A stretch of 31,521 bases of DNA from Escherichia phage 204576. The notes under the pieces were generated by a model that saw nothing but the letters and a program-made list of their open reading frames with translations, was not told the origin of the DNA and made no database searches. The stretch is from sequence record CP025907.1; one strand, 5' to 3'. Every line of letters begins with the position of its first letter. Position 1 is the stretch's first letter. Positions 11,832-31,521 of this stretch are shown here, in pieces. The position numbers and the translations under genes were made by a program.

Positions 11832-11957
11832 ATGAAGATCAATGTGAAGGAGTTGTTTTTGTTACTCGGGCAAAAAAACACTAACGCAGTGAAATTATAC
11901 GCGCCACAGTCAGTGTGTGAAAATGTGAAGATATTCAGAAATTTTATTCCGTCATGA
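11832..11957 (+). CDS. Possible small ORF (41 codons) in the I-J intergenic insert
   Basis: ATG at 11832 with a weak GGGGA ribosome-binding site; MKINVKELFLLLGQKNTNAVKLYAPQSVCENVKIFRNFIPS; lies between hairpins. No homology recalled. Confidence 0.2.
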   Translation: MKINVKELFLLLGQKNTNAVKLYAPQSVCENVKIFRNFIPS

Positions 11958-12024
11958 CGCAGGCACCCGGTGAGGTGCCTGTTGTTTTTGTGAGTGAACA
12001 ATTATCACGGTAAGAGGTGATGTA

Positions 12025-15000: not shown

Positions 15001-15497
15001 ATGCGAACTCCGGGACGCTCAACAACGTCACGATTAACGAGAACTGTCGGGTTCTGGGAAAATTGTCCGCCAACCAGATTGAAGGCGATCTCGTTAAAAC
15101 AGTGGGCAAAGCTTTCCCCCGGGACTCCCGTGCACCGGAACGGTGGCCATCAGGGACCATCACCGTCAGGGTTTATGACGATCAGCCGTTTGACCGGCAG
15201 ATTGTTATTCCGGCGGTGGCATTCAGCGGCGCTAAACATGAGCGGGAGAATAACGATATTTATTCGTCATGCCGCCTGATAGTACGGAAAAACGGTGCTG
15301 AAATTTATAACCGTACCGCGCTGGATAATACGCTGATTTACAGTGGTGTTATTGATATGCCAGCTGGTCGCGGCCACATGACGCTGGAGTTTTCGGTGTC
15401 AGCATGGCTGGTGAATAACTGGTATCCCACAGCAAGTATCAGCGATTTGCTGGTTGTGGTGATGAAGAAAGCCACCGCAGGCATCAGTATCAGCTGA
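12025..15497 (+). CDS. J: Central tail fibre / host specificity protein J; single frameshift near 12890
   Basis: Near-collinear match to lambda gpJ from [19 protein letters not shown] to the C-terminus. The frame break is at ggcatggaaaacgt where lambda encodes YGMGKRL, consistent with loss of one G. Confidence 0.95.
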
Positions 15498-15514
15498 ATT
15501 TTATAACCCATATA

Positions 15515-15542
15515 CGGGCGCCAGAAATGGCGCCTTTTTTAT
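15515..15542 (+). terminator. Rho-independent terminator after J
   Basis: GGCGCC-agaaat-GGCGCC stem-loop followed by TTTTTT. Confidence 0.7.
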
Positions 15543-15564
15543 TGCAGAAAAGCGAGAGGTAATT

Positions 15565-16164
15565 ATGCGTAAAGTTTGTGCAGTCATTTTGTCCGCAGCC
15601 ATCTGTCTGTCCGTATCCGGTGCGCCTGCATGGGCGTCTGAACATCAGTCCACACTGAGCGCGGGGTATCTTCATGCCCGTACGAACGCTCCCGGCAGCG
15701 ATAATCTGAACGGGATTAACGTGAAATACCGTTATGAGTTTACGGACGCGCTGGGGCTGATTACGTCCTTCAGTTATGCCAATGCTGAGGATGAGCAAAA
15801 AACGCACTACAGCGATACCCGCTGGCATGAAGATTCCGTGCGTAACCGCTGGTTCAGCGTGATGGCGGGGCCGTCTGTACGCGTGAATGAATGGTTCAGC
15901 GCGTATGCGATGGCGGGTGTAGCTTACAGCCGTGTGTCGACTTTCTCCGGGGATTATCTTCGCGTAACTGACAACAAGGGGAAAAAGCACGATGTGCTGA
16001 CCGGAAGTGATGACGGTCGTCACAGCAACACGTCTCTGGCGTGGGGGGCTGGCGTGCAGTTTAACCCGACCGAATCCGTGGCCATTGATATTGCTTATGA
16101 AGGCTCCGGCAGTGGTGACTGGCGCACTGACGGTTTCATCGTGGGTGTCGGTTATAAATTCTGA
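15565..16164 (+). CDS. lom: Lom outer-membrane protein (Ail/Lom family)
   Basis: Intact 199-aa ORF with signal-peptide-like N-terminus; INVKYRYE, YAMAGVA.SR and C-terminal IAYEGSGSGDWRTDGFIVGVGYKF identical to the lambda Lom end. Confidence 0.9.
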   Translation: MRKVCAVILSAAICLSVSGAPAWASEHQSTLSAGYLHARTNAPGSDNLNGINVKYRYEFTDALGLITSFSYANAEDEQKTHYSDTRWHEDSVRNRWFSVMAGPSVRVNEWFSAYAMAGVAYSRVSTFSGDYLRVTDNKGKKHDVLTGSDDGRHSNTSLAWGAGVQFNPTESVAIDIAYEGSGSGDWRTDGFIVGVGYKF

Positions 16165-16189
16165 TTAGCCAGGTAACACAGTGTTATGA

Positions 16190-16218
16190 CAGCCCGCCGG
16201 TTCAGGCGGGCTTTTTTG
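16190..16218 (+). terminator. Rho-independent terminator after lom
   Basis: GCCCGCC-ggttca-GGCGGGC stem followed by TTTTTT. Confidence 0.7.
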
Positions 16219-16228
16219 TGGGGTGAAT

Positions 16229-19200
16229 ATGGCAGTAAAGATTTCAGGTGTACTGAAAGACGGCACAGGAAAACCGGTACAGAACTGCACAATCCAGCTG
16301 AAAGCAAAACGTAACAGCACCACGGTGGTGGTGAACACGCTGGCCTCAGAAAATCCGGATGAAGCCGGGCGTTACAGCATGGACGTTGAGTACGGGCAGT
16401 ACAGCGTTATTCTGTTGGTGGAGGGATTCCCGCCGTCACATGCCGGGACCATCACCGTGTATGAAGATTCCAGACCAGGTACGCTGAATGATTTTCTCGG
16501 TGCCATGACGGAGGATGATGCCCGTCCTGAGGCACTGCGCCGTTTTGAACTGATGGTGGAAGAGGTGGCGCGTAACGCGTCCGCGGTGGCACAGAACACG
16601 GCAGCCGCGAAGAAGTCAGCCAGCGATGCCGGCACATCAGCCCGTGAGGCGGCAACCCATGCGACTGATGCTGCAGGCTCAGCACGCGCAGCCAGCACGT
16701 CAGCCGGACAGGCCGCGTCGTCGGCTCAGTCAGCATCTTCCAGCGCAGGAACGGCATCAACAAAGGCCAGTGAAGCATCGAAAAGTGCTGCTGCTGCAGA
16801 GTCCTCAAAAAGCGCGGCAGCTACCAGTGCCGCTGCGGCGAAAACGTCAGAAACGAATGCGGCAGCGTCACAACAATCAGCAGCCACTTCTGCATCCGCC
16901 GCGACCACGAAGGCGTCAGAAGCAGCCACCTCAGCCCGGGATGCGGCGGCCTCAAAAGAGGCAGCGAAATCATCAGAAACGAACGCATCATCAAGCGCCA
17001 GTAGTGCCGCTTCCTCGGCAACGGCGGCAGCAAATTCCGCGAAGGCGGCAAAAACGTCCGAGACGAACGCCAGGTCTTCTGAAACGGCAGCGGGACAGAG
17101 CGCCTCAGCTGCGGCAGGCTCAAAAACAGCGGCTGCGTCGTCTGCCAGTGCCGCGTCAACAAGTGCCGGGCAGGCCTCAGCCAGTGCCACCGCCGCCGGA
17201 AAATCGGCAGAAAGTGCCGCATCGTCTGCTTCAACAGCCACAACGAAGGCTGGCGAAGCCACTGAACAGGCCAGCGCAGCAGCGAGGTCTGCTTCCGCAG
17301 CGAAGACATCCGAGACGAACGCGAAAGCGTCGGAAACCAGCGCAGAATCCTCAAAAACGGCTGCCGCATCGTCCGCCAGTTCGGCGGCGTCATCGGCATC
17401 ATCGGCGTCTGCTTCAAAAGATGAGGCGACCAGACAAGCGTCCGCAGCGAAGGGCAGCGCCACGACAGCATCCACGAAGGCGACAGAGGCAGCTGGCAGT
17501 GCGACGGCGGCAGCACAGAGCAAAAGTACGGCGGAATCCGCGGCAACGCGCGCCGAGACAGCGGCAAAACGGGCAGAGGATATTGCATCCGCCGTGGCGC
17601 TTGAGGATGCAAGTACGACGAAAAAGGGGATAGTACAGCTCAGCAGTGCGACCAACAGTACGTCTGAAACGCTGGCGGCAACGCCAAAGGCAGTAAAATC
17701 AGCCTATGACAATGCAGAGAAACGTCTGCAGAAAGACCAGAACGGCGCTGATATACCCGATAAGGGACGCTTCCTGAACAACATTAACGCGGTCAGTAAA
17801 ACAGACTTTGCTGATAAGCGTGGTATGCGTTATGTGCGGGTTAACGCTCCTGCAGGTGCAATATCTGGAAAATATTACCCTGTTGTTGTTATGCGTTCTG
17901 CTGGCTCAGTAAGCGAACTGGCATCAAGGGTCATTATCACCACGGCAACGCGAGCCGCAGGCGATCCGATGAATAACTGCGAGTTTAACGGATTTGTTAT
18001 GCCAGCCGGATGGACTGACAGAGGGCGTTATGCCTATGGAATGTTCTGGCAATATCAAAACAATGAACGAGCCATTCACTCAATAATGATGAGTAATAAG
18101 GGCGATGATTTGCGCTCTGTGTTCTATGTTGATGGCGCTGCTTTCCCTGTTTTTGCGTTTATCGAAGATGGCCTGTCAATATCCGCACCTGGTGCTGATC
18201 TCGTTGTTAACGATACGACCTACAAGTTTGGGGCAACAAATCCGGCGACTGAATGTATCGCGGCGGACGTTATCCTTGATTTTAAGAGTGGGCGTGGTTT
18301 TTATGAGTCTCATTCGTTAATCGTTAACGATAACTTGTCGTGCAAAAAACTTTTTGCCACAGACGAAATTGTAGCGCGTGGTGGTAATCAGATTCGAATG
18401 ATAGGTGGGGAGTATGGGGCATTATGGCGTAATGATGGCGCTAAAACTTACCTGCTGCTTACCAATCAAGGTGATGTTTATGGTGGCTGGAATACATTAA
18501 GACCGTTTGCTATTGATAACGCAACCGGCGAACTGGTTATTGGAACCAAACTGTCTGCAAGTCTGAACGGTAACGCATTGACAGCAACAAAGCTGCAAAC
18601 GCCAAGACGGGTTTCTGGGATTGAGTTTGATGGTTCCAGAGATATTACTTTAACCGCCGCGCATGTGGCTGCTTTTGCCAGAAGGGCAACGGATACATAT
18701 GCCGATGCGGATGGTGGCGTTCCCTGGAATGCCGAATCAGGCGCTTATAATGTCACCCGCTCTGGCTACAGCTATATTCTGGTTAACTTCTATACCGGAG
18801 TCGGAAGTTGCCGGACCTTGCAGATGAAGGCGCATTACAGAAATGGTGGTCTGTTCTACCGTTCTTCAAGAGACGGTTATGGTTTTGAGGAAGACTGGGC
18901 AGAAGTTTATACCTCGAAAAATCTTCCACCAGAAAGCTACCCAGTCGGCGCACCAATCCCGTGGCCATCAGATACCGTTCCGTCTGGTTATGCCCTGATG
19001 CAGGGGCAGACTTTTAACAAATCTGCCTACCCGAAACTTGCAGCCGCTTATCCGTCAGGCGTGATCCCTGATATGCGTGGCTGGACGATTAAGGGCAAAC
19101 CTGCCAGTGGTCGGGCCGTATTGTCTCAGGAACAGGACGGCATTAAATCGCATACCCACAGCGCCAGCGCATCCAGTACGGATTTGGGGACGAAAACCAC

Positions 19201-19642: not shown

Positions 19643-20226
19643 TGGCATTCAGAATGAGTGAACAAGCACGGACCATAAAAATTTATAATCTGCTGGCCGG
19701 AACTAATGAATTTATTGGTGAAGGTGACGCATATATTCCGCCTCATACAGGTCTGCCAGCAAACAGTACCGATATTGCACCACCAGATATTCCTGCTGGC
19801 TTTGTGGCTGTTTTCAACAGTGATGAGGCATCGTGGCATCTCGTTGAAGACCATCGGGGTAAAACGGTTTATGACGTAGCGTCAGGGGACGAGTTATTTA
19901 TTTCTGAACTCGGTCCGTTACCGGAAAATGTTACCTGGTTATCGCCGGAAGGGGAGTTTCAGAAGTGGAACGGCACAGCCTGGGTGAAGGATACGGAAGC
20001 AGAAAAAATGTTCCGGATCCGGGAGGCGGAAGAAACAAAAAACAACCTGATGCAGGTAGCCAGTGAGCATATTGCGCCGCTTCAGGATGCTGCAGATCTG
20101 GAAATTGCAACGGAGGAAGAAACCTCATTGCTGGAAGCCTGGAAAAAGTATCGGGTGTTGCTGAACCGTGTTGATACATCAACTGCACCTGATATTGAGT
20201 GGCCTACGAACCCTGTCAGGGAGTAA
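19642..20226 (+). CDS. tfa: Tail fibre assembly protein Tfa
   Basis: Intact 194-aa ORF, same length as lambda Tfa; start overlaps the stf stop (TAATGG). Confidence 0.85.
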
Positions 20227-20280: not shown

Positions 20281-20937
20281 CTATTTTTTCCCTGAAGCGG
20301 AAAACATTACTACAGTACCTTGAACCTTGGTTTTAACATTCTCGAAATGCTCTGAGAGTATATGTGTTAAGCCTTCTTCGGAATCTTTTGTGTTTGAAAA
20401 GATGCCTTTCTGATTGTAAATGCGCATCAGTTTTTGACCGAAGCTATTGTGCACAACTCCATCGCCAAGAATTGTGGCTCCGTATAGAGTTCCATCGTCA
20501 GTTAAGGCCTGCGCCGCATTGCGTATTACACAGCTTTTTGTAGATATATTTCCAGGCAGGCAGTGAAGAAGGTAAAACATGGAAATGGAATCAAATTGAC
20601 CATGTAACGCCGCGGGATAAGGTTCAAAAACATCATGGCTAATTTTATGTTTAATTTTTGATTCCCCAGCCCTTGTAGATGCCGCGTTCAGGCTAGCTTC
20701 GTTCAAATCCATTAAAGATATCAGACTACTCTCAGGTACGTGAGTAAGGTAAAACCCAGTTCCAACACCAATATCCAGATGGTTGTTACCTACATGTTCC
20801 AGAAAGTGTGGAAGAAGGTGTTCCTTTGTAGGACATCCCCATGCAAGCCGATTTGATACTCCCAAAACCCACCAGTCATAAAGCTTTAGGGTAAGTGGTG
20901 TGTAAATTTTAGCCCCATCATCTGTGTTTTTTTTCAT
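20281..20937 (-). CDS. Class I SAM-dependent methyltransferase (non-DNA type), low-GC cargo gene
   Basis: Motif I DIGVGTGFY (GxGxG), acidic post-I LMDLNEASL, motif II/III region FDSISMFYLLHCLP; no DPPY/NPPY DNA-methyltransferase motif. Preferred start MKKNTDDG with a GGTGA ribosome-binding site (ORF track start 20949). Confidence 0.7.
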   Translation of the reverse strand: MKKNTDDGAKIYTPLTLKLYDWWVLGVSNRLAWGCPTKEHLLPHFLEHVGNNHLDIGVGTGFYLTHVPESSLISLMDLNEASLNAASTRAGESKIKHKISHDVFEPYPAALHGQFDSISMFYLLHCLPGNISTKSCVIRNAAQALTDDGTLYGATILGDGVVHNSFGQKLMRIYNQKGIFSNTKDSEEGLTHILSEHFENVKTKVQGTVVMFSASGKK

Positions 20938-21005
20938 TGATTTCACCATGTTATAGTTTTATTTGTGAATTAAATCAATTATGGCGATGAATTACAAGGG
21001 GTTAA

Positions 21006-21275
21006 ATGCTGCCGCAGCATAGCGATATTGAAATAGCCTGGTATGCTTCGATACAGCAGGAGCCGAATGGCTGGAAGACCGTCACCACACAGTTCTACAT
21101 CCAGGAATTCAGTGAGTATATTGCGCCACTGCAGGATGCTGTAGATCTGGAAATCGCAACGGAGGAAGAAAGATCGTTGCTGGAGGCATGGAATAAATAT
21201 CGGGTATTGTTGAATCGTGTTGATACATCAACTGCACCTGATATTGAGTGGCCTGCAAATCCTGTCAGGGAGTAA
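21006..21275 (+). pseudogene. Remnant second tfa (C-terminal part of a different tfa allele)
   Basis: C-terminal 50 aa ([52 protein letters not shown]) near-identical to the end of the tfa at 19642..20226; the N-terminal part is short and not Tfa-like. Confidence 0.65.
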
Positions 21276-21278
21276 TCA

Positions 21279-21560
21279 TTGGGATTATGCCGCAGACACG
21301 TCGTATGCAGGAACGTGCTGCGGTTAGTTTGTGAGCTTTCGATAGTGGTTGTTATTTTTGCCCTTATTTGTTCCGGAGGCCATGGTTCAATGGTCCGTCT
21401 GCCCCCTGTGGTGATGTCAGCAAAATCAGCCACTGCGCGAACCACAATAGCCCGGGAAGATGCTGAAGATCACCAGGTAAAGCTATCAGCGCAGAAACTG
21501 GAAGAACTGCTCGCATCAATGGTTAAGGATGAGGTTGATCGCAATGATGGGATTTATTGA
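21279..21560 (+). CDS. Hypothetical small protein (possibly starting at the internal Met, about 56 aa)
   Basis: ORF only; GGAGG upstream of the internal ATG; no recognisable motifs. Confidence 0.2.
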   Translation: MGLCRRHVVCRNVLRLVCELSIVVVIFALICSGGHGSMVRLPPVVMSAKSATARTTIAREDAEDHQVKLSAQKLEELLASMVKDEVDRNDGIY

Positions 21561-21699
21561 CGTCAGCGAGAGCAGAAGGAAGAACTGAATAACCTGAATG
21601 ATTTACGCTCAATCAGAGCGATGATGATTGGCAGTAATTAGCGGTCAATTTCGGTTTTTTTGGCTGTGCGCTCCCCGCCCAGCATTGCGCGTCAATTAG

Positions 21700-22050
21700 C
21701 CCCAAAAAAACGAAAAAGTTACAATCAAGTAAAAAATTCCTTCTGCAAAACTAAAAAAGATTTCAATAAAATCAGACAGTTAAAAACATAAAAAAAAGGT
21801 ACAAAAAAACATCTCAAAGTCTTGTTTTTTGCTTCAAATACAATTGGTTATTGTGTTTTTTGAAACCTACCAGTGTGGTACATGGATATCGATACCACGG
21901 CTAAGTACAAATCTGGTGTTACTACCGTAAAAGACTCGGTACGACTGGATCCGTGGGTGTTTATGTTCTCCGCAGGATATCGTTTTTAATTTTCTCTGCA
22001 AAACCTCTGCAAAACCCCTCTGCAAAACTGGTCATCAAATGACCAGTTTT
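21700..22050. other. Putative attP region with arm-type integrase-binding repeats
   Basis: AT-rich segment adjacent to the int 3' end; three tandem CTCTGCAAAAC repeats at 21994..22028 and one TCTGCAAAAC at 21742..21751; placement as in lambda attP. Confidence 0.55.
22024..22050. terminator. Palindromic hairpin overlapping the int stop codon (terminator or sib-like element)
   Basis: AAAACTGGTCAT-caa-ATGACCAGTTTT perfect inverted repeat flanked by A/T runs on both sides. Confidence 0.4.
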
Positions 22051-23165
22051 TTCCATTCCTTACCGCGTGCGTCGTTGTAAATATCGGTCATTTTTTGATT
22101 CGAATGGCCTAGCAAAATTTTGGTATCAACCCCCTGCTCTCTTAACAATCGCTCTGATAAAGATCTCTGCTCATGGAAAGAGGGAGGGGTGCCATTAGCA
22201 CGCCAGTTGTAATCCACAGAATCCCGGGCTTTTTTAAATGCAACGGTTAATGTTGCTGGCTTAACCATCCCGCCGCGCTTAGCTGTCCCTTTCGCGTGAT
22301 GGTGGTGCAATAGCCACGGACTAAGAACGCAATCGCGGCAGGATGACACCACATCATCCAGGGTGAGATTTAATTTATCGCAACGCAGAGCCAGAGGGAT
22401 GGCAATCCGGGTTCCTGTTTTTTGCTGTTCGACATGAAGATAACCATCCCGGATATCCGAAAATTGCATTTTGCAAATATCTGAAAGGCGCTGGCCTGTC
22501 ATCAGTGCCAGCAGCATACCGCGCTGTAAAAAGTAACCATCCTTTTCCGCTGCGTTATAAATCATCATCCACTCATCAAAAGTCAGTCGCTGTCTTGATA
22601 TCCGCACCTGCGGTTTTTTTGCCGATTCTGCAGGGTTAAAGCCTGGCGGGACATCGCCCGTTTGCTGAGCTTCCCGGAAAACATCGATCAGTACCTTCCT
22701 GAAAATTTGTCCCATTCTGTTATGTCCTCTGGCCTTGTACTCTTCCAGTACTGATACCACATCTTTTACGGTTATGGCATCTAACGGTCTGGTGCCAAAA
22801 CGTTCATCAAATACCCTGAGAGGGGCCGCTTTCTGTTTCAGCGTGTTGAGTTTGATCTCGCCGTTTTCATATCTTTCCTGTTGAATTTTTCTGTAATTAT
22901 TCAGAAAAATGGTAACGGTTGATGAACCGCCGGTATCACTAATAATTTTCTCCTGCAGACTGAGCATTTGTTCCATTTGCTGCCGGGCAAGACGGCTGTT
23001 CGCTTCTGCTGCAATAGTTTCTGCCAGTTTCTGGTCAATACTGCCGAGACCGTGATTTTTGCCTGTTATGGGATGCCTGTAACGCCAGTAAACTTTGTTA
23101 TTTCTTTTGTCAAAATACGGAGATAATCCCGGAACATTGGTTTTATATTTTCGCGGGCGCGCCAT
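22035..23165 (-). CDS. int: Tyrosine integrase (lambda Int family)
   Basis: Intact 376-aa ORF; C-terminal catalytic region (TFHE.RSLS.RL, LLGHSNQKMTDIYNDARGKEWKKL) parallels lambda Int (LLGHKSDTMASQYRDDRGREWDKI). Confidence 0.9.
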   Translation of the reverse strand: MARPRKYKTNVPGLSPYFDKRNNKVYWRYRHPITGKNHGLGSIDQKLAETIAAEANSRLARQQMEQMLSLQEKIISDTGGSSTVTIFLNNYRKIQQERYENGEIKLNTLKQKAAPLRVFDERFGTRPLDAITVKDVVSVLEEYKARGHNRMGQIFRKVLIDVFREAQQTGDVPPGFNPAESAKKPQVRISRQRLTFDEWMMIYNAAEKDGYFLQRGMLLALMTGQRLSDICKMQFSDIRDGYLHVEQQKTGTRIAIPLALRCDKLNLTLDDVVSSCRDCVLSPWLLHHHHAKGTAKRGGMVKPATLTVAFKKARDSVDYNWRANGTPPSFHEQRSLSERLLREQGVDTKILLGHSNQKMTDIYNDARGKEWKKLVI

Positions 23166-23391
23166 CTTCCAGTATCCTCTTCAAAGCAGGGTGATCTGTG
23201 GCGATCACCTCCGGCTTGTTTACCATTCCGACAAAGCGAGCTTGCGGATCCACTCGCCAGCGTCTTCCAACTTTTTTGGGGAGAGGAAATATCATTCCGG
23301 CTTTAGCGTATTTACTTAACGTACTCGGAGTTGGGACCGGTTCACTGAATTCCTCTTTTGCCCACTCAGTGAGCAGAATAAGTCTTGCCAT
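23143..23391 (-). CDS. xis: Excisionase (Xis-like)
   Basis: 82-aa ORF overlapping the int start by 23 nt; LTEWAK......P.P.TLSKYAKAGMIFP.PKKVGRRW resembles lambda Xis. Confidence 0.7.
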   Translation of the reverse strand: MARLILLTEWAKEEFSEPVPTPSTLSKYAKAGMIFPLPKKVGRRWRVDPQARFVGMVNKPEVIATDHPALKRILEDGAPAKI

Positions 23392-23455
23392 GAGCGTCGT
23401 TCGCTAATCATGGTCGCCGCCACTATAGCTGGTGGGCAACGACCGGGGTTGAACA

Positions 23456-25926
23456 TTAAAAATCAGCCTGATTCGGGATCAGTTTTTGCCAGATAACTGA
23501 AACGTATTTTGCCTGGTAACGGGCGTCATCAAGTGCATTATGGCGCTCACCTTCGAATGGAATAGCCGTTCTGGCATCGAAGTCTATGGCTTTCCCCAGC
23601 TCAACGATTGTGCGTACATCGCGATCGTTGTAGTAACGCCACGGGCAGGGGATCCCCTGCCGTTCGTATGAACGGCGCAAAATCGTGTTGTCGAAGTTGG
23701 CTCCATTTCCCCAGACATGAACAAAAAATTCACCGGAGTTTTCGTCGATAAATTCCCGCAATTGTAACAGTGCATCATCTAACGGGATTTCATCGGTCAT
23801 AATGGCAGACTGCGCTTCACGTGATTGCTTCAGCCACCTTTTAATGACGTCACGATCAATGACTCCGCCAGCAGTTTCCAGATCGATAGTCTTACTAAAT
23901 TCCGGTCCCATATCTCCGGTTTGCGGATCGAAAAATATTGCACCTATTGAGATAATCGGGGCATCAGGATTTTTTCCCATGGTTTCAAGGTCGATCATTA
24001 GATGGTCACACGTCCTGCTGGTGGATGTGATAACGTGATGACCGTTCATCGTAATTAAGGGATCTGCCGTCTCGCCAGTTTCACTATCGCTGGCGTGATC
24101 CTGAGCGCTACCAGCATTCTCCTTGTGTGGATGTTCAGCGCCTTCCATTTCCTTCGGATCATTTTCCTGAACTTCAACCTGATTCTCTTCATCGAATGTT
24201 TCCTGGTATGTTGCGTCACCCATCACCGCGCCACAATCAGGGCAGTTGCCGCCACCGCTTTGACCGCAGGCGGTGCAGACTTTTTCCGGTTCCTGTTGCG
24301 CTACTGGCTCAGGTTGTTTCGTTTCTGGCTCGTTTTGTAACGCATTTGGGCTGTTTTGTTCCGCTTTCTGGCCGTTCTGTTCCGTTTCTTGTTGGTTCTG
24401 ATTCACTGAATCGCGGGTTTCAATCCCCTTCACCCATTTCGGATCATTCGGGTCGCTAATCCCTGCAACAAATTCACCACGTGATACAGCAAGCAACTTA
24501 TTGGCGTCAGGCTGGCTGATATTGGCTGCCTGCATAATTTTGTTTACTTCGTCAGCGGTAACTTTTACCGGCTCTGGTTGTGCGATCGTGTCAGATGCAC
24601 CAGTATTTTGTTGTGAACCTGAGTATGTACTGTTTTTGCGGGCGAAATATTCTTCTTTCGTGATTTCAGTAGCCCCGGCAGCCAGCGCCTTATCCAGACC
24701 AGAAAGTTTGTTTGCGCGACCGTATTTTTCGCCATCCTTGTCGGTGAAGAGGAAGTAGAACGGCCCTTCACGCTCTACAGATGGTTCGACTTCCACTTTG
24801 CATTCGGTTTTTTCGTTGTCCGGAATTGCCGTTTCCACTGCATCAGTTTCTGGTACTGGCGACGAGAGAGTATCAGTTGCGCTCTGATTTCTTCCTTCAT
24901 CTTCAAACACGCCCTTTGTAGTCAGGTATTCAGTAATGTATTTGTTCAGTGCCACAGGGTCTTTGTGAATGTCGATCGGACGTTCACGGACAAGGCCAAA
25001 AATAGTCTGGCGGTCGTAGCGAAGGGCATCAGGCTGTTTGCGCATTGATGCCGAGATACGCTTCCAGTCTTCGCGGTCGTTGTCGATAACTTCATTTTTT
25101 GCCCAGCGATGGATGCTGCCGTCAATGTTTCCGGCATCCACATCACCAGGCCAGAGAGCGTAGGCCAGTTCGTCATCCAGTGTTTTCCATGTCTGCTTGT
25201 ATTCGCGATGAATGGCAGCAATGACCGGGCTGATTTTTCCTGTTGAATTTTCACTGTGCTGTTGATTGGTTCTGGCGCAGGCGAGATCAACAACAGACGT
25301 GTATTTTCCGGTTTCCTTGCGTTCACCTTCGCGACGTTTTTCCAGATGCGCATCTCTGCCTGAATTTCGGGCCATTTGGCACCAGGCTTACATTTATGCT
25401 TAACCCACCCGATGGCATGCAGCTTAAGCTCCGGATACATGGCGTTAACTTCTGGCATTTTCATCAACGCTTCAACGATATGTCCGTCGAATGTTGCCAT
25501 GTCTTCCTGCAACAATTCCTGTGCGCTAATAACCATATCAACGGTGATGTTTTCACATGTGTCGAACTTAACCATGACAGCGTTCTGTACTTCAGGGGAC
25601 AGCTTGTCAAAATTGACGTTCATCGGATCGGATTCTGGTTCGACTGGAATAAAGGAAGCGGATTCCTCATCCCAGCGGTTTTCCTGCATATATTCAGCAT
25701 CCCAGGAATCGAGGGCAGGGCGGGGTATACCGGGTTTATCCTCGCAGACAAGAAATTTATAAGCGCAGTCCTGAGCAGCCGGATAATGTTCCAGGAATTG
25801 CCAGTGAAATTTTGCGCGGGCGCGACGTTCATCACCGGCTTCAATGGCAGTGGCTACAGCGACGGCACCTTCTTCCTTTATTGCCTGTTCGTCCGGAATG
25901 GCGGCGCAAATAAAGACTTTACTCAT
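23456..25926 (-). CDS. Large exonuclease-like protein: acidic N-terminal domain, Cys4 zinc ribbon, C-terminal DEDDh (DnaQ-like) 3'-5' exonuclease domain; probably one frameshift near 25250-25375
   Basis: ORFs 24946..25926 and 23456..25375 overlap in different frames and both look protein-like near the junction. C-terminus carries DEDDh motifs (IDLETMG, VWGNGANFDNTIL, HNALDDARYQA) and a central CTACG...CPDCG zinc ribbon. Confidence 0.65.
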
Positions 25927-26205
25927 TTTGTTTTAACCTCATTACAGATTTCAGGGTGAACGAATCCCTGCCATTGCTGGCATTTTTAATCCGTTGGTAT
26001 GGCGTTAATATGGCTGGCGGGTTATCCAGCCGGTATTTCGTTATTCAGGTTCAGCGATACTTTTTTAACGGGAGGCATTCACCGGGGATTTTTTGTTCGT
26101 CCCTTACCTGAATGCAGGATGACTTACTGTCATAAATTCCGGTAATCACATTTTGTGGCTCACCCGTTATAAGAAAAACGGTCATCACCAGTGCAAATGC
26201 TGAAG

Positions 26206-26394
26206 TCACTGCTGTTCTCCGATAATACCAAGTTCAAGAAGGGCAATTCTGGAAAGTATGGAATTATCATTGAGAAGATAAGGTTCATATTTTCTCATCT
26301 TAATGGCATCTTCCGTAAACTCCCGGTTACTGAGCAGAACACCAATATCAAAACAACCTTCAGACGTATTAACGTTTGGTAATAACGTTTCCAT
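26206..26394 (-). CDS. dicB: DicB-like cell-division inhibitor (62 aa)
   Basis: METLLPNVNTSEGCFDIGV...TEDAI matches my recollection of E. coli Qin DicB (MKTLLPNVNTSEGCFEIGV...); GAGGA ribosome-binding site 7 nt upstream; same length (62 aa); immediately downstream of a DicF-like sequence. Confidence 0.7.
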   Translation of the reverse strand: METLLPNVNTSEGCFDIGVLLSNREFTEDAIKMRKYEPYLLNDNSILSRIALLELGIIGEQQ

Positions 26395-26563
26395 TATCGC
26401 GTCCTCAACAATGAATTTTGTGATGCGGTGCCTGGTGCCTCCAGGTGACGTTAACCAGTTAACAATTAACGCCGGATACAGAGAATCCACCCATAACACT
26501 GTTTTTGGTTTTAACTGTTCCGCGTGCGCTCAGCCGCATTCACCACATCACAAAATTCACTTT

Positions 26564-26621
26564 AAAAAGGGCGGCAGAGCAGTCACGGAGTAAAACTGAT
26601 ACCGCCAAACGTCACCAGAAA
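26564..26621 (-). ncRNA. dicF: DicF-like small RNA with intrinsic terminator
   Basis: Minus-strand sequence UUUCUGGUGACGUUUGGCGGUAUCAGUUUUACUCCGUGACUGCUCUGCCGCCC followed by UUUUU; matches recalled 53-nt DicF (ftsZ-targeting sRNA) and sits directly upstream of dicB as in the Qin operon. Confidence 0.75.
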
Positions 26622-26961
26622 ATTGATAACAGAGGGCGTTGCAGCGGAGTTGTCACTTAAGCGTATGGTCAACCTGACAACCCGGTGTCCTCAACGGAGG
26701 AAGGAATAACCCGCCATACTTACCGCCGCGCCATTTCGCGGATTGCCACAACCGGAAGCGCACGGTCGACGAAAATTTAACGACAGGCTATCTATGAACC
26801 AGCTACCTCGCCGTGCGCTTTCGCGTTATGGTCTGACTTTTCAGGGAAATATCCTTTCAGTAAACTGTCAGTGCCGGATGCTCACCCGTGTCCGGCGCAC
26901 GCACTCCACCTCACCCGTGGAGAACTCCTTAATTACTAACCTTAGCTTTGTTGATTAGCTA

Positions 26962-27180
26962 CTAACGCGGGTATGTAATCATTCTGGCAATGCTTAATGC
27001 CGCTGCTTTTTCCAGATTGGTGATATCCTGCTCCAGAGCGGACAGATTTTCAGCCTGCTTAGCCCTGGTTTCATTGGCCCATTTCAAATCCTGCGCTGCA
27101 TTAATTTTCTGGCGCATCCACTCATAAAGTTCATCATCGGTATAGTCTGGCGCGATGATGACGGGTTCTCGTTTCTGCAT
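26962..27180 (-). CDS. YdfC-like small protein (72 aa)
   Basis: GAGGAA ribosome-binding site; 72 aa, the same length and operon position as ydfC in the Qin dicB operon; no independent sequence recall. Confidence 0.55.
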   Translation of the reverse strand: MQKREPVIIAPDYTDDELYEWMRQKINAAQDLKWANETRAKQAENLSALEQDITNLEKAAALSIARMITYPR

Positions 27181-27209
27181 ACTGATTCCTCGCGGTGCTG
27201 TTTCGCTTA

Positions 27210-27338
27210 TCAGCCGTTAGATTTTGCCGAACTGGAAAGCACCTGTTTAAATTCGTTGAAGCTGTGAGCTTCTTCGCCTTCGGCAAGGCCTTCGAAGTAT
27301 TCTTCGTAAGCCTTTTCCATGATTGTGTCAAAATCCAT
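27210..27338 (-). CDS. YdfB-like small acidic protein (42 aa)
   Basis: ATG 1 nt after the upstream stop (TGAtATG), AGGTGA ribosome-binding site; MDFDTIMEKAYEEYFEGLAEGEEAHSFNEFKQVLSSSAKSNG; length and position match ydfB of Qin. Confidence 0.45.
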   Translation of the reverse strand: MDFDTIMEKAYEEYFEGLAEGEEAHSFNEFKQVLSSSAKSNG

Positions 27339-27339
27339 A

Positions 27340-27495
27340 TCACTCACCTGAGTTTCTTTCCAGCCAGCGACGGGCACCATTTTCGGTTTGAAACGTTTTG
27401 CTTTTGGTATACGTCATCGCGGTGAACGTACCGTCCTGGTTGGGGAACACGCCACATACCAGAGATTCGCTGTTGCCAAGATCGATAGTATCCAT
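27340..27495 (-). CDS. YdfA/YdaF-like DUF1391 small protein (51 aa)
   Basis: Internal start MDTIDLGNSESLVCGVFPNQDGTFTAMTYTKSKTF with a GAGGT ribosome-binding site; 51 aa, first gene of the leftward operon as ydfA is in Qin. Confidence 0.55.
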   Translation of the reverse strand: MDTIDLGNSESLVCGVFPNQDGTFTAMTYTKSKTFQTENGARRWLERNSGE

Positions 27496-27674
27496 GCTGA
27501 CCTCATTTCCCCTTAACGCCGGGGTAGCGGAACAAAAACCTGCTGCATAGTTATTAAAGTTGAACCCTGCCGTCATGTTCTTACGCCTCGGGCTGGCTAC
27601 TTAACCCCTGACCACTGCCTGGTAACTCGAAGTATTGCCCTGCATTCTGTGGGGTGGGGAGAGGGAATGAATGA

Positions 27675-27703
27675 AGTTTAGAAAAATGAACTTTTTATGT
27701 CAA
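27675..27703 (-). promoter_or_regulatory. Candidate pL-like promoter for the leftward early operon
   Basis: Minus-strand TTGACA (27703..27698), 17-nt spacer, TAAACT (27680..27675); located between the repressor gene and the ydfA-like gene. Confidence 0.35.
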
Positions 27704-27787
27704 TGTTTTTTTATCAAAACATTTTAAGCAGGCAGCTGTTAAGCCATCACCACGATGGCATACAGTTAATCAAATAGATGAGGTCGG

Positions 27788-28425
27788 TTAAATATCTTGT
27801 TGAATTTTAAAGCATACGCCCAATATGCAAGATAGATCATCCAGCATAATTGAAGGGTAGCGAGGATTCGTGGGGACTAAAAGAATATCCGGCCCTTCTA
27901 TCTCCAGTTTACGAATGACAGGTGTTGTGGTCCCTTTGGGTAAGGCAAGGACAATATTTCCTGGTTGTACGGTTCGATCGGGATCAACAAAAACTGTTGA
28001 ACCATTTGGGATGGAAACTCCCCCACCAGATGTTGACATACTGTCACTCTCTAGAACAACTGCAAAGGTATTGGCCGGGATTTCTCCGACAAGCTGCACA
28101 CAAGAGGTTATTGAGGAATTTTTCATATAATCACTCCAGCTTGCTGCCTGCTGAAGTGATAGTAGCGGAACCGTTTTTATCGGCGGTAAAGATAGATCAA
28201 GCGAATCACTGTATTTAACTCTCCTCCATTAAGAAGCCAATTTTCGTTTACTTTCAATATTTTTGCCAGTGAACTTATGTAACGCGAGGACGGCGCTCCT
28301 CCACCGTTCATCCATTGACTTACGGAGCCTTTTGATGCGCCAGTGGCATTGACAAGGTCTTTGCCTTTCAGGTTTAGCGCATGCATACGTTGGGTTATGC
28401 GTTCAGATATTGTTTGCTTGCTCAT
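27788..28425 (-). CDS. cI-like repressor (N-terminal HTH plus C-terminal S24 LexA-type peptidase domain); one frameshift near 28180-28228
   Basis: HTH ORF 28177..28425 (LKGKDLVNATGASKGSVSQWMNG); S24 frame open from 28228 to 27788 with linker VPLLSLQQAAS, nucleophile region LESDSMS and lysine region PVIRKLE. Confidence 0.75.
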
Positions 28426-28458
28426 GTTTTGATTTTAAAACACAGATGGTTTTGTTTC

Positions 28459-28487
28459 TTGACTTTCTTTGGTTTTGATTATTAAAC
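28459..28487 (+). promoter_or_regulatory. Candidate pR-like promoter upstream of the cro-like gene
   Basis: TTGACT at 28459..28464 with a TATTAA/TTAAAC -10-like element 15-17 nt downstream; TGGTTTTG direct repeats nearby may be operator half-sites. Confidence 0.3.
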
Positions 28488-28516
28488 TTTTGGCGTTCAG
28501 TTTTATGGAGCGACTC

Positions 28517-28747
28517 ATGAAAAAATCAGAAGTATTAGGCTATTTTGGCGGAGTTGTTAAAACAGCCGCAGCTCTAGGAACGTCAAAAACCACAGTCAGC
28601 ATGTGGGGGGAAGAGGTTCCGTGGAAATGGGCGTTGCTAATTCAGGCAGTCACTGCCGGGGCGCTCAAATATGAGTTACACATACCGACGGTTGTCATTC
28701 CCGGTTCTGATCATAATCCGCCTTCTAACCAAGGGGGGGATTCATGA
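28517..28747 (+). CDS. Cro-like HTH regulator (DicC/YdaS-like, 76 aa)
   Basis: MKKSEVLGYFGGVVKTAAALGTSKTTVSMWGE HTH motif; divergent from the repressor; GGAG ribosome-binding site. Confidence 0.65.
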   Translation: MKKSEVLGYFGGVVKTAAALGTSKTTVSMWGEEVPWKWALLIQAVTAGALKYELHIPTVVIPGSDHNPPSNQGGDS

Positions 28748-29168
28748 AAATCAAGCATGAACACATCCGCATGGCGATGAATGCCTGGGCGCGTCCTGAT
28801 GGCGAAAAAGTTCCGGCAGCTGGAATAACCCAGGCTTATTTTGAGTTGGGTATGACGTTTCCTGAACTGTACGACGACAGCCATCCGGAAGCCCTGGCTC
28901 GCAATACCCAGAAAATTTTCCGCTGGATAGAGAAAGACACCCCTGATGCAGTTGAAAAATTCAGGCGTTGTTACCAGCGATCGAAAAGGCAATGCCACCT
29001 TTGCTGGTGGCCAGAATGCGCAGCCACAGTTCAGCTTATTTTCGGGAGCTGGTGGAGACGCGGGAGCGACTGGTGAGAGACGCTGATGATTTTGTCGCAG
29101 TGGCAATCGCCGGTTTCAATCAGATGAACCGTGGTGGCCCGGCAGGAAATGCTGTGGCAGTACATTGA
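28744..29168 (+). CDS. YdaT-like protein (proposed CII functional analogue); frameshift near 28970-29000
   Basis: N-terminus MKIKHEHI matches my recollection of Rac YdaT; combined length about 141 aa (YdaT is 140 aa); start overlaps the cro-like stop (ATGA). Confidence 0.5.
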
Positions 29169-29233
29169 CTGACAATAGCCATATCGAATCGCTTCCGGCA
29201 ACTCGTGAGTAAAAAGATTCGGTATCAGAAGAG

Positions 29234-30231
29234 GTGAGTATGGCTAACGCCTGGCTCAGATTATGGCATGACATGCCAAATGACCCTAAGTGGCGAACAA
29301 TTGCCAGGGTGTCAGGGCAGCCAATTGCAACAGTGATGGCAGTGTATATCCACCTCCTGGTGAGCGCGTCACGAAATGTCACGCGAGGTCACATTGATGT
29401 CACGACAGAAGATTTGGCAAGTGCGCTCGACGTGACAGAAGAGGTAATTGATTCAATTTTGCAGACGATGCAGGGGCGGGTACTTGATGGTGATTTAATC
29501 ACTGGATGGGAAAAACGCCAGGTGCTTAAAGAGGACAACGGCAATATTTCGCAACCGCAAAATCTCCTGCAGAGCGCAAGAGGGCGCAGCGAGAGAGGGA
29601 AAGAAAGCGGGAACAAAATGGCGATTGTCACGGCACGTCACGAAATGTCACGCACATGTCACGACGAGTCACGACAGATAAAGATACAGATAAAGATACA
29701 GATCAAGAAGATCAAAACACTATGGTCCATGGCGTAAAAAACGCCACGAACCAGGCAGGGGATGTTCAGACCGTCAATCTTGGTCAGCCAGCAGGCACGA
29801 CACCGGAAGCCGATTCAGCGTATGCGCTGAAAGCCGATTCGGGCGCTGTGCAGCAGGTGATGACCGCAAGGCCGGAGCAATCACACCAACTGCAGCAGCC
29901 TGAAGCCGATTCCGCCATTCAGCGGGAAGCCGATCGGGTAGTCCCGGAAAACACCGGGCAGTCTGTGGGACGAGTGGATTATCCGGATGTGTTCGAACAG
30001 GTCTGGCGGGAGTACCCGTTGCGTGCTGGGGCAAACCCGAAGAAATCCGCTTTCAGTGCCTGGAAGGCCAGATTACGCGAGGGGGTGCCACCAGAGGCCA
30101 TGCTGGATGGCGTGAGGCGTTACGCAAGATACTTGGCGGCTACCGGGAAAACGGGAACGGAATTTGTTCAGCGAGCGACGACGTTTTTTGGACCGGACCG
30201 GAATTTGAGAACTCCTGGTTGCTCCCGGTAA
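29234..30231 (+). CDS. Replication initiator (phage O-like replisome organiser) containing internal origin iterons; frame change inside the second iteron cluster
   Basis: ORFs 29234..29737 and 29656..30231 overlap in different frames across the iterons; position after the cro/cII-like genes as for lambda O; ori-within-gene architecture. Confidence 0.6.
29368..29405. repeat. Iteron cluster 1: four GTCAC(G/A) repeats at 10-11 bp spacing
   Basis: GTCAC at 29368, 29378, 29388 and 29399. Confidence 0.7.
29627..29720. repeat. Iteron cluster 2 (five GTCACG repeats at about 10-bp phasing) plus A-rich GATAAAGATACA tandem repeat; candidate replication origin
   Basis: GTCAC at 29627, 29637, 29647, 29658 and 29668, then gataaagatacagataaagatacagatcaagaagatcaaaac. 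Confidence 0.7.
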
Positions 30232-30348
30232 GCGGCACGAACAACCAGCGTTGTGTGAATCATATTTCTGAACCGGATAACGAAATTCCGCCGGGCTTCA
30301 GGGGGTAAGTGTTAATTTCTGGTCATGAGGTAATTTTCAGGAGGGCTT

Positions 30349-30747
30349 GTGGCAAAAGTTTTTACACAAGAAGAGCGGGAAAAAATTAAAGGACAGGTTG
30401 TTGAACTCGTACGCCAGAGTGGGCGTGAGACGTTACGGCAACTGGAAGTCAAGACAGGTGCGACAAGATATCTGATGAGCGTTCTCGCAAGAGAGCTGGT
30501 TGCCAGCGGCGATGTATACAACTCTGGTTACGGGTTATTCCCGTCTGAACAGGCGCGTAAGGACTGGCAAAATGCCCGTAAAAAGCTCTCAAGGGCAAAG
30601 CTGAAGAAACCATCTGCGGTTGATCCGGACCTTATCTGGTCATTACCTGACGGAGAAATACGTCGCTACGACAGGCGTCAGAACATAATCTGTCGCGAGT
30701 GCGGAAGAGTGAAGTTATGCAGCGCATATTGTCGTTTTATCAGGTGA
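30349..30747 (+). CDS. Hypothetical protein with C-terminal Cys cluster (CRECG...C..C)
   Basis: GTG start 5 nt after AGGAGG; 132 aa; no family recognised. Confidence 0.5.
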   Translation: MAKVFTQEEREKIKGQVVELVRQSGRETLRQLEVKTGATRYLMSVLARELVASGDVYNSGYGLFPSEQARKDWQNARKKLSRAKLKKPSAVDPDLIWSLPDGEIRRYDRRQNIICRECGRVKLCSAYCRFIR

Positions 30748-30915
30748 TGTTCGGTATTTATTGAAGTGACGAGATTAAAGTGCATTAGTTCAGATGCAAA
30801 TTGACATTTTGTGGCACAGGGTAGAGCTAGCGTGGTTGTCCGCTTTGTGCCAACAGCGGACATTATAGATGGTATATGTAGAAAGTGAACATGCGTAGAT
30901 TGTATGATTTAGCCG

Positions 30916-31152
30916 TCACTTAATTATTGGATAACTCACACAAGTATGACCGTTGCTTATCGCATACATTTGGTTTCCCTTAAGATTTACAAATGGAAAT
31001 GTCGTATACTCATAATTTATAGAGGTCATATTAAATGTAAGGAATTTATCTTCAAGTTCTAATTTTGTAGAGTGGGCAGGGTATGTTCCTTCATTTTCAT
31101 TGTGATAATAAACCGATAGGAAAAAAATGTAAAGCACAAATAAATGCCACAT
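30916..31152 (-). CDS. Hypothetical small protein with hydrophobic N-terminus inside the AT-rich terminal segment
   Basis: ORF only (78 aa), LFVLYIFFLSVYY hydrophobic stretch; low GC. Confidence 0.25.
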   Translation of the reverse strand: MWHLFVLYIFFLSVYYHNENEGTYPAHSTKLELEDKFLTFNMTSINYEYTTFPFVNLKGNQMYAISNGHTCVSYPIIK

Positions 31153-31521
31153 GTCCTTCGTTCATAAATGCTACACTTTGAGCGGATATGTGCATTCTGT
31201 GTGGGTAAAACCAGTAGTAAATATCATGAGTTTCTCAAAACTTGAATTTTTACCCAAAACATAATCCTTTAAAGGTGTATAGAAGGGGCTATCTACGGGT
31301 TCTTTTTTACAATCTTCAACTGAAGTTGCTGATAGCACGTGCCCAATCATAGCCTTAGTGAAAGATATGCTATCAAAGGTATTCTAATGAATGGATATAC
31401 ATTCATACCATTCATATATCGACTTAACTGTTCTTTAAAGGACTTTGTTACATTTTCAATTGCAACATCGAGCCCACCTAATACCTTATTGTTACAGTGG
31501 CTGCAAATGGTTCTGAAATAA

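What the first reader, a model, noticed from the sequence alone, without database searches (positions are those of the whole stretch)
30748..31521. Abrupt AT-rich segment at the window end: probable inserted cargo island, truncated by the window
Base composition drops sharply immediately after the stop at 30747 and stays AT-rich to the end of the window. Coding potential switches to the minus strand: ORF 30916..31152 has a hydrophobic N-terminus, and a further minus-strand reading frame enters from beyond 31521 and ends about 31350 (...ICSHCNNKVLGGLDVAIENVTKSF...). A hairpin (GTCCGCT-ttgtgccaac-AGCGGAC, about 30838..30861) lies near the boundary. The replication/nin region of lambdoid phages is a known hotspot for accessory genes; this looks like one such insertion, but its content cannot be determined because it continues outside the window.
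Basis: seen in the sequence. Interest (0 to 1): 0.55.

Follow-up and report, generated by a model that had tools for sequence, protein, structure and literature searches.

The report
Single-gene mobile cassette in phage hotspot
The AT-rich end of the window is a 1-kb mobile cassette carrying one uncharacterised nuclease-like gene, probably an anti-phage gene, that sits between short palindromic recombination sites which also bound other cargo genes in lambda-like phages, P2-like phages and plasmids.

Summary
The AT-rich drop (GC 0.34 against 0.52) and the hairpin at 30838-30861 are real. The ORF picture is not. The window differs from 79 E. coli genomes only by single-base homopolymer deletions (13 over 9.6 kb, no substitutions). 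These break one 810-nt minus-strand gene into fragments and create the false stop at 30747.

The extension shows a 984-bp single-gene cassette, not a large island, followed by ordinary hokD, nin and Q genes.

The gene encodes a 269-aa protein with an invariant zinc/HNH-like motif (CxxC..DHVPP..CxxCN) and a C-terminal domain without fold relatives. Its family is large (1797 clusters) and has no curated domain or known-defence match.

The hairpin is a 9-6-9 recombination site. A GTGCCA-spacer site and a TCGCTC-spacer site bracket 17 alternative cargos at this lambdoid slot, including validated PD-T7-1 and three PADLOC candidates. The same sites flank fun(Z) in phage P2 (inverted repeats reported by Nilsson 2004, per a review) and delimit cassettes on IncF plasmids. 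Two of those plasmids carry the same units in permuted order, as spacer-specific recombination predicts. A 200-aa tyrosine recombinase is itself one of the cassettes.

Best reading: a mobile candidate defence nuclease cassette. Its function is untested.

The parts
30349..30769 (+). Backbone: DUF977/LygF-family gene, the last conserved gene before the hotspot. In the window its frame is broken by 1-nt deletions at 30701 and 30742, which give a false stop at 30747.
   Evidence: The intact 140-aa CDS is at L001 14050-14472.
30838..30861 (.). Left recombination site: 9-nt arm, 6-nt spacer, 9-nt arm (GTCCGCTTT-GTGCCA-ACAGCGGAC). The left arm and spacer go with the phage backbone. The right arm ACAGCGGAC goes with the cassette.
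   Evidence: Homology to other phages ends here, and homology to the P2-like and plasmid copies begins here.
30862..31521 (.). Body of the AT-rich cassette: the first 660 of 984 bp. The rest, including the right site GTCTGCTTT-TCGCTC-AAAGCGGAC, lies about 325-350 bp beyond the window end.
   Evidence: GC 0.34.
30916..31521 (-). 3' three-quarters of the single 810-nt cassette gene: residues 68-269 plus the stop codon at 30916-30918. The product is the 269-aa HNH-like, zinc-binding protein WP_000161640.1. In the window it is split by 1-nt homopolymer deletions at 31093, 31109, 31233 and 31374. Residues 1-67, which hold the first CxxC and the DH motif, lie outside the window.

Best explanation
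The AT-rich segment is a roughly 1-kb single-gene mobile cassette in the variable slot of a Qin/Rac-like lambdoid phage, between the replication genes and hokD/nin.

Shown: the slot is bracketed by two 24-bp sites made of 9-nt inverted arms around a 6-nt spacer. The upstream site has spacer GTGCCA and the downstream site has TCGCTC. Cargo boundaries fall at the spacers.

Inferred: cassettes are swapped by a site-specific recombinase that pairs only sites with the same spacer. The most likely enzyme is the 200-aa tyrosine recombinase that is itself carried as a cassette. This would give cassette exchange without cargo loss.

Shown: the cassette gene is really intact. The breaks seen in the window are homopolymer errors.

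Inferred from the motif: the gene encodes a stand-alone 269-aa protein whose N-terminal 90 residues form a zinc-stabilised HNH (beta-beta-alpha-metal) nuclease core. The beta-rich C-terminal 170 residues are an orphan domain that I take to be the specificity or sensor module.

Inferred from context: it is expressed against the phage's rightward early transcription and protects the lysogen by cutting incoming phage or other foreign DNA. It could do this as a solo, McrA-like enzyme that spares host DNA, or as an infection-triggered suicide nuclease.
For: Gene intact, window errors:
- All 13 differences over 9.6 kb are 1-nt gaps and there are 0 substitutions.
- The gene is intact in 136 E. coli genomes and about 50 plasmids.

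Single-gene cassette:
- CDS at L001 14619-15428, followed by hokD, DUF968, RusA and Q. GC is 0.34 against 0.52-0.54 in the flanks.
- The same 1 kb is found 99-100% identical on IncF plasmids and 94% identical in P2-like phages at the tail-fibre/sheath hotspot, with breakpoints at the sites.

Sites and hotspot:
- 65 loci carry both sites, with 17 cargo types.
- Each cargo type has a single arm variant at each end, while one identical 40-nt backbone is joined to 5 different arms.
- Internal sites subdivide compound cargos.
- Arrays of the form site G, cassette, site T, 18 bp, site G occur in other Enterobacterales and in an E. coli chromosomal island.
- Plasmids NZ_CP020517 and NZ_CP023918 carry units in the order A-B-C and C-B-A in the same orientation, with hybrid arms at every junction. 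This is what excision through the GTGCCA sites and reintegration through a TCGCTC site would produce.

Recombinase:
- Pfam Phage_integrase at 1e-17, with R, HxxR, H and Y present.
- It is always flanked by the two site types.
- It is present in 864 of 5426 E. coli genomes.

Protein:
- Invariant C21, D30, H31, V32, P33, P34, C73, C76, N77.
- HNH_5 is the recurrent sub-threshold Pfam hit, in 23 of 33 members.
- AF2 model pLDDT 84.8, with the DH pair at the end of a strand and CxxCN entering a helix.

Defence context:
- Slot-mates are PD-T7-1 (4e-157), PDC-S39, PDC-S15, PDC-S33 and a HEPN/RES-like pair.
- P2 fun(Z), the T5-exclusion gene, lies between the same two site types.
- Homologues are solo genes in a P4-like satellite, at the end of a filamentous prophage and in a recombinase island.
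Against: - No match to any PADLOC, NCBIfam or Pfam model at threshold.
- Cassette cargo is not exclusively defensive. betT, LysR/MFS genes and an iron-uptake operon are also cassettes, so guilt by association is only moderate.
- No consensus promoter or terminator was found in the cassette.
- The recombinase is absent from the window and from the 29 kb of the reference locus, and recombination was not observed directly.
- The plasmid permutation is a single pair of records.
- The P2 copy of this cassette lacks a right-hand site.
Confidence: 0.6

Rival explanations
1. The gene is a free-standing HNH homing endonuclease. It is a selfish gene that spreads by cutting cassette-free alleles and being copied in during repair, and it gives the host no benefit.
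For: HNH-like motif. AT-rich. Near-identical copies in unrelated replicons.
Against: Its boundaries are the same short sites that bound at least 17 unrelated cargos, most of them not nucleases. Mobility is therefore explained without homing. It occurs in three unrelated backbones with no shared target gene. It also carries a large conserved C-terminal domain and is found as a solo gene in many other kinds of element.
Confidence: 0.08
2. The copy in this window is a truly decayed pseudogene remnant of a former cargo gene, as the fragmented ORFs suggest.
For: Four frame breaks within 606 bp of coding sequence in the window.
Against: Every difference from intact copies is a 1-nt deletion inside a homopolymer, and there are no substitutions over 9.6 kb. 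The same error type also breaks essential backbone genes: the replisome organiser, the DUF977 gene and the portal region. Real decay would also produce substitutions.
Confidence: 0.04
3. The protein is not a defence nuclease but has some other accessory role for mobile elements. Examples are a zinc-binding regulator, an addiction toxin, or an anti-defence or exclusion factor acting on proteins. The CxxC/DH motif would then be structural only.
For: No significant nuclease homology. Database names are inconsistent ('chaperonin', 'metal-binding protein'). Cassette cargo includes non-defence genes. The Pectobacterium homologue sits next to ParE/RelB modules.
Against: D30, H31 and N77 are invariant across sequences down to 22% identity, along with the four cysteines. 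That pattern is expected for a catalytic site rather than a bare zinc ribbon. There is no conserved partner gene, so an antitoxin is unlikely; the cassette holds one ORF in 984 bp. The 'chaperonin' label has no support in any domain or fold search.
Confidence: 0.2
4. The 24-bp palindromes are only conserved transcription or RNA-stability hairpins. Cargo turnover would then be by ordinary homologous recombination in the flanking backbone, not by a site-specific recombinase.
For: The recombinase is absent from most loci (4 of 110 viral loci). The hairpins are stable. Flanking backbone is conserved among lambdoid phages.
Against: The hairpins have no T-tract and none scores as an intrinsic terminator. 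The same cassette moves between backbones with no flanking homology (lambdoid, P2-like, IncF), with breakpoints inside the sites. Arms co-vary with the adjacent unit on each side of the spacer. The plasmid permutation respects spacer identity. The recombinase gene is always embedded between the two site types, across genera.
Confidence: 0.15

Closest known systems
Phage P2 fun(Z) locus, a variable locus between tail-fibre gene G and sheath gene FI. According to review PMC8987985, Nilsson et al. 2004 reported that it is flanked by inverted repeats enabling site-specific recombination.
   Same: Same two site types. P2 fun(Z) lies between GTCCACTCT-GTGCCA-AAAGCGGAC and TTCCGCTTC-TCGCTC-AAAGGAAAC. 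A 94%-identical copy of this very cassette occupies that locus in phage pro147 and in E. coli prophages. The cargo is AT-rich, on the opposite strand and non-essential.
   Different: Here the platform is in a lambdoid phage, at the junction between the replication genes and hokD. The cargo protein is a different gene from fun(Z) (269 aa against 528 aa; their sequences were not compared here). I could not read the 2004 paper, so I do not know whether it described the two spacer classes, the arrays or a recombinase.
Integron gene cassettes (IntI with attC and attI)
   Same: Mostly single-gene, often promoterless-looking cassettes, bounded by imperfect palindromes and stacked in arrays. They are reshuffled without inversion and carried on phages, plasmids and chromosomes. 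They are known to hold defence genes.
   Different: The sites are 24-bp 9-6-9 palindromes, not 57-141-bp attC sites with R''/L''-L'/R' boxes. There are two alternating spacer classes instead of one site type. The candidate recombinase is 200 aa and contains only the catalytic domain. It scores 53.6 bits against a cut-off of 220 for the XerA/integron-integrase model. No attI or Pc-like platform was seen.
EcoKMcrA, the Type IV HNH restriction enzyme of prophage e14
   Same: A solo, prophage-borne gene with no partner. It has the same Cys4-zinc HNH motif order: CxxC, then (D/H)H-V-(I/P)-P, then N, then CxxC(H/N).
PD-T7-1 (Vassallo et al. 2022) and the PADLOC candidates PDC-S15, PDC-S33 and PDC-S39
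   Same: They occupy exactly the same site-bounded slot in sister phages, as single-gene cassettes, mostly on the minus strand.
   Different: There is no sequence relationship to the 269-aa protein.

Membership tests
HNH / beta-beta-alpha-metal nuclease superfamily | Two CxxC pairs forming a structural zinc site around the active-site hairpin | tested here: met
   C21, C73 and C76 are invariant and C18 is at least 90% conserved in 33 sequences down to 22% identity.
HNH / beta-beta-alpha-metal nuclease superfamily | Catalytic His, usually preceded by D/E/H, at the end of the first strand, and a metal-ligand Asn/His at the start of the helix after the second CxxC | tested here: met
   D30-H31 is invariant and lies at the end of strand 24-32. 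N77 is invariant and lies in helix 74-81 of the AF2 model. This is sequence and model level only.
HNH / beta-beta-alpha-metal nuclease superfamily | Significant profile or fold match to established HNH families | tested here: inconclusive
HNH / beta-beta-alpha-metal nuclease superfamily | Metal-dependent nucleic-acid cleavage | not testable with these tools
   Needs biochemistry.
P2 Z/fun-type site-bounded cassette | Cargo flanked by the conserved inverted-repeat sites | tested here: met
   The left site is at window 30838-30861. The right site is at L001 15549-15572 in the otherwise identical prophage. Reference P2 fun(Z) has the same pair.
P2 Z/fun-type site-bounded cassette | The same cargo is found in unrelated replicons, with breakpoints at the sites | tested here: met
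   Lambdoid, P2-like and IncF copies share only L001 14541-15514 or 14532/14549-15572. The plasmid unit permutation has hybrid arms at the junctions.
P2 Z/fun-type site-bounded cassette | Recombinase-catalysed exchange at the sites | not testable with these tools
   The only evidence is comparative.
Known or candidate anti-phage defence systems (PADLOC-DB 2.0.0) | HMM match to a system component | tested here: not met
   0 families at E <= 10.
Integron cassette | attC site and IntI-type integrase | tested here: not met
   The sites are 24 bp, 9-6-9. The associated recombinase is 200 aa and far below the integron/XerA model cut-off.
Free-standing HNH homing endonuclease gene | Private insertion point next to or within a cognate conserved target gene | tested here: not met
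   The boundaries are shared with at least 17 unrelated cargos and occur in three unrelated backbones.
Type IV (modification-dependent) restriction enzyme | Nuclease fused to a recognisable modified-base reader domain (SRA, EVE, PUA-like and similar) | tested here: inconclusive

The most novel reading that the evidence does not exclude
The hairpin at 30838-30861 belongs to an undescribed, integron-like but mechanistically distinct cassette-exchange platform.

Its proposed features are:
- A minimal 200-aa tyrosine recombinase, itself a cassette and present in 16% of complete E. coli genomes, with relatives in at least 546 of the species-representative genomes searched.
- The recombinase acts on 24-bp sites with two mutually incompatible spacers (GTGCCA and TCGCTC).
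- Cargo can therefore be swapped but not lost, as in engineered recombinase-mediated cassette exchange.

The platform would link the defence hotspots of lambdoid phages, P2-like phages, IncF plasmids and chromosomal islands. The 269-aa HNH-like protein would be a new single-gene defence family that travels on it.
Probability: 0.4. Interest if true: 0.8.

Novelty: new member of a known kind. Interest (0 to 1): 0.6.

Why it matters
How phage defence hotspots swap their cargo so quickly is an open question. Recent surveys of P2 and P4 hotspots describe the turnover, but the ones I searched do not mention hairpin or palindromic sites.

This locus gives a concrete and testable mechanism: defined 24-bp sites, two spacer classes, a candidate 200-aa recombinase, and a natural pair of plasmids that differ by the predicted reaction.

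It also links the lambdoid hotspot between the replication genes and hokD to the classical P2 fun(Z) locus, and to resistance plasmids of E. coli, Klebsiella and Shigella.

Separately, the cargo gene belongs to a large protein family (1797 clusters at 50% identity) with no curated domain, an orphan fold and a nuclease-like motif. It is a good candidate for a new single-gene anti-phage system.

On the practical side, the finding shows that the window carries systematic homopolymer deletions that fragment real genes. This affects how every ORF in the window should be read.

Tried and rejected
Searches on the 269-aa protein:
- Pfam, NCBIfam and PADLOC: nothing at threshold.
- PHROGs: only phrog_21495, of unknown function.
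- PDB sequence-profile search: nothing.
- Foldseek against PDB and BFVD: no hit with E below 0.1.
- The afdb50 library was not available.
- hhalign of the family against E. coli McrA aligned only the first CxxC and was not significant.

Other checks:
- The promoter and terminator scan of the cassette showed no excess of promoters and no terminator. The hairpins are therefore not canonical terminators, and the gene's promoter is unresolved.
- Literature searches by accession, PHROG id and site sequence found nothing relevant. Nilsson 2004 and Odegrip 2006 are not held.
- K-12 Qin has no remnant of the small recombinase.
- The 269-aa ORF next to the recombinase in APEC O2-211 is unrelated, and the equal length is a coincidence.

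Readings considered and rejected:
- A large multi-gene island.
- A membrane protein with a hydrophobic N-terminus, which is a frameshift artefact.
- The hairpin having arrived in P2 together with this gene. The site is part of the P2 hotspot and is followed there by at least 5 cargos.

Full report
**Observation.** The composition drop is real. GC is 0.338 in window 30862-31521, 0.515 in 28800-30800 and 0.524 overall. The hairpin GTCCGCTTTGTGCCAACAGCGGAC is at 30838-30861. It is the only match to the site pattern in the window, with 0.01 expected by chance, and it folds well as single-stranded DNA (-7.4 kcal/mol, z -3.9).

**The window carries homopolymer errors.** Window 30300-31521 matches 79 complete E. 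coli genomes at 99.5%. A base-by-base comparison with strain 504237 (locus L001) shows that every difference is a 1-nt deletion inside a homopolymer. There were 9 such deletions over window 28700-31521, and 13 gaps with 0 mismatches over window 21871-31521. This points to sequencing or assembly error, not decay.
- The errors create the 'stop at 30747'. The real DUF977 gene ends near 30769.
- They split the replisome-organiser gene.
- The 'hydrophobic N-terminus' is out-of-frame translation.

**What lies beyond the window.** In the intact prophage the AT-rich stretch is about 1.2 kb and holds a single CDS (L001 14619-15428, 269 aa, WP_000161640.1). It is followed by hokD, DUF968, RusA, Q, tRNAs and lysis genes of normal GC. 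The window contains residues 68-269. It is therefore a single-gene insert and not an island.

**The protein.**
- No Pfam, NCBIfam or PADLOC family matches at threshold, and only PHROG 21495 of unknown function matches.
- The family is well conserved: 93 clusters of about 270 aa in Gammaproteobacteria, inconsistently named 'chaperonin' or 'metal-binding protein', and 1797 clusters at 50% identity in the exhaustive profile search.
- Invariant residues are C21, D30-H31-V-P-P, C73-x2-C76-N77, D85, H128, W171, Y173, F200, P202 and P244.
- The N-terminal pattern follows the order of a Cys4-zinc HNH motif, as in McrA.
- HNH_5 is the recurrent sub-threshold Pfam hit (23 of 33 members, best E 0.0023), and Endonuclease_7 and HNH also appear.
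- hhalign against McrA is not significant.
- The HNH call is therefore met at motif level and statistically inconclusive. The beta-rich C-terminal domain is an orphan.

**The cassette and its sites.**
- The same 1 kb occurs 99-100% identical on conjugative IncF plasmids of E. coli, Klebsiella, Shigella and Enterobacter. It is 94% identical in P2-like phages between the tail-fibre and sheath genes.
- The shared DNA is only L001 14541-15514 (P2-like) or 14532/14549-15572 (plasmids). The left edge is the hairpin, and a second, similar hairpin (GTCTGCTTT-TCGCTC-AAAGCGGAC) is the right edge.
- Phages Tritos, Evi and mEp460 share the backbone up to the left hairpin and again from the right hairpin, but carry other cargo between them.
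- A scan of viral contigs found 110 loci with the left site. Of these, 65 have both sites and 17 distinct cargos of 984 bp to 6.7 kb.
- Each cargo type has one right-arm variant at its left site and essentially one left-arm variant at its right site. One identical 40-nt backbone is joined to five different arms. The break is therefore at the 6-nt spacer.
- Compound cargos are subdivided by internal sites.
- Other Enterobacterales and an E. coli chromosomal island show arrays of the form [GTGCCA site]-cassette-[TCGCTC site]-about 18 bp-[GTGCCA site]....

**Evidence for site-specific exchange.**
- Plasmids NZ_CP020517 and NZ_CP023918 carry three units in the orders X-[G]-A-[T]-B-[G]-C-[T]-D and X-[G]-C-[T]-B-[G]-A-[T]-D. 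All units keep the same orientation, and every junction is a hybrid of the neighbouring units' arms.
- This is the product expected from excision of A-[T]-B through the two GTGCCA sites and reinsertion through a TCGCTC site.
- Unit A is the HNH-like gene. Unit B is a 200-aa tyrosine recombinase (Pfam Phage_integrase 1e-17, with R51, H148xxR151, H173 and Y183).
- In every Enterobacterales relative examined, that recombinase is preceded by a TCGCTC site and followed by a GTGCCA site. Equivalent sites flank it in Pseudomonas and Burkholderiales.
- It occurs in 864 of 5426 complete E. coli genomes, but in only 4 of the 110 viral loci. It is absent from the window.
- Catalysis by this enzyme is inferred and not shown.

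**Prior art.** A review (PMC8987985) states that Nilsson et al. [quoted passage not shown] In reference P2, fun(Z) lies between GTCCACTCT-GTGCCA-AAAGCGGAC and TTCCGCTTC-TCGCTC-AAAGGAAAC, so these are almost certainly the same sites. I could not read the 2004 paper. The papers on P2, P4 and E. coli hotspots that I searched do not mention the sites. As far as I can tell, the following appear to be additions:
- the lambdoid hotspot;
- the two spacer classes;
- the arrays;
- the recombinase candidate;
- the plasmid permutation.

**Function.**
- Slot-mates include PD-T7-1 (experimentally validated by Vassallo 2022; E 4e-157), PDC-S39, PDC-S15 (FRG domain), PDC-S33 (RelA/SpoT) and a HEPN/RES-like pair. 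P2 fun(Z) excludes T5 (annotation).
- Vassallo et al. call the fun locus a second P2 defence hotspot.
- Homologues elsewhere are solo genes in a P4-like satellite next to ParE/RelB, at the end of a filamentous prophage next to DUF2726, and in a serine-recombinase island.
- This supports a single-gene defence or exclusion role.
- Against it, cassettes also carry betT, LysR/MFS genes and an iron-uptake operon. No known defence model matches, and no promoter was resolved.

**Verdict.** The 'island' is one small cassette, the ORF details are artefacts, and ordinary nin and Q genes follow.

My confidence in each claim is:

| Claim | Confidence |
|---|---|
| Site-bounded single-gene cassette | about 0.9 |
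| Gene intact in reality | about 0.95 |
| Exchange by a site-specific recombinase | about 0.65 |
| The 200-aa enzyme is that recombinase | about 0.5 |
| Defence function | about 0.5 |
| HNH nuclease mechanism | about 0.45 |

Noticed in passing
window 21871-31521 and 1-1629 (compared with L001): The window is the same phage as the ompW-adjacent prophage of E. coli 504237, but in vegetative (excised) gene order. It carries systematic 1-nt homopolymer deletions: 13 in 9.6 kb with 0 substitutions, and 15-16 gaps in the first 1.6 kb. Many ORFs in the window are therefore artificially broken.
   Followed up: partly
window 19985-20183 (+) and 26569-26620 (-): Rfam matches above gathering score: IS009 RNA (RF02111, 223.8 bits) and the DicF antisense sRNA (RF00039, 76.7 bits). 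This fits a Qin-like immunity and dicB region.
   Followed up: no
window 20500-22000: A second low-GC stretch (0.39-0.40) lies just before the point where homology to the prophage's ompW/integrase junction begins (window 21871 = L001 5565). It may be another accessory 'b-region' cargo next to attP.
   Followed up: no
window 16501-17500: Unusual composition: GC 0.62-0.63, AT skew +0.34 to +0.36 and GC skew near 0, inside the structural gene region.
   Followed up: no
L119 (E. coli K-12 Qin) 5982-6005 and 6973-6996: In K-12 the same two site types (GTCCGCTTT-GTGCCA-GGAGCAGCC and TTCCGCTTC-TTGCTC-TTAGCGGAC) flank flxA. Their orientation is inverted relative to the hokD backbone. No remnant of the small recombinase was detected.
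   Followed up: partly
L120-L199 (genome-contig hits to the 200-aa recombinase): The recombinase family has at least 546 relatives (61-95% identity) among the species-representative genomes, across Gamma- and Betaproteobacteria. In Pseudomonas it is flanked by inverted copies of one site (GTCCGCTTC-TGGCCG-GTTAGCGAC and GTCGCTAAC-CGGCCA-GAAGCGGCC), as if a small element sat inside a palindrome. What it mobilises there was not examined.
   Followed up: partly
L225 (E. coli APEC O2-211 chromosome) 7436-17447: A chromosomal array of the same sites around the recombinase. Its cassettes include an ETEC_3214-family gene, an unrelated 269-aa ORF and a 5.7-kb TonB-receptor/ABC iron-uptake operon. It lies next to a dynamin/RdcB/patatin cluster. 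Cassette cargo is therefore not only defensive.
   Followed up: partly
L003 3269-6965 and viral loci L019, L029, L039, L043: A 3673-bp betT (choline transporter) plus DUF2254 unit is itself a site-bounded cassette. It is found both in lambdoid phage hotspots and on IncF plasmids, and in the loci examined it is always the first unit of a compound array.
   Followed up: partly
L070 5817-5882; L123 15695-15760; L124 13942-14007: Adjacent cassettes are joined by a TCGCTC site, about 18 bp, then a GTGCCA-type site. This looks like an 'empty' version of the unit that elsewhere holds the recombinase gene.
   Followed up: no
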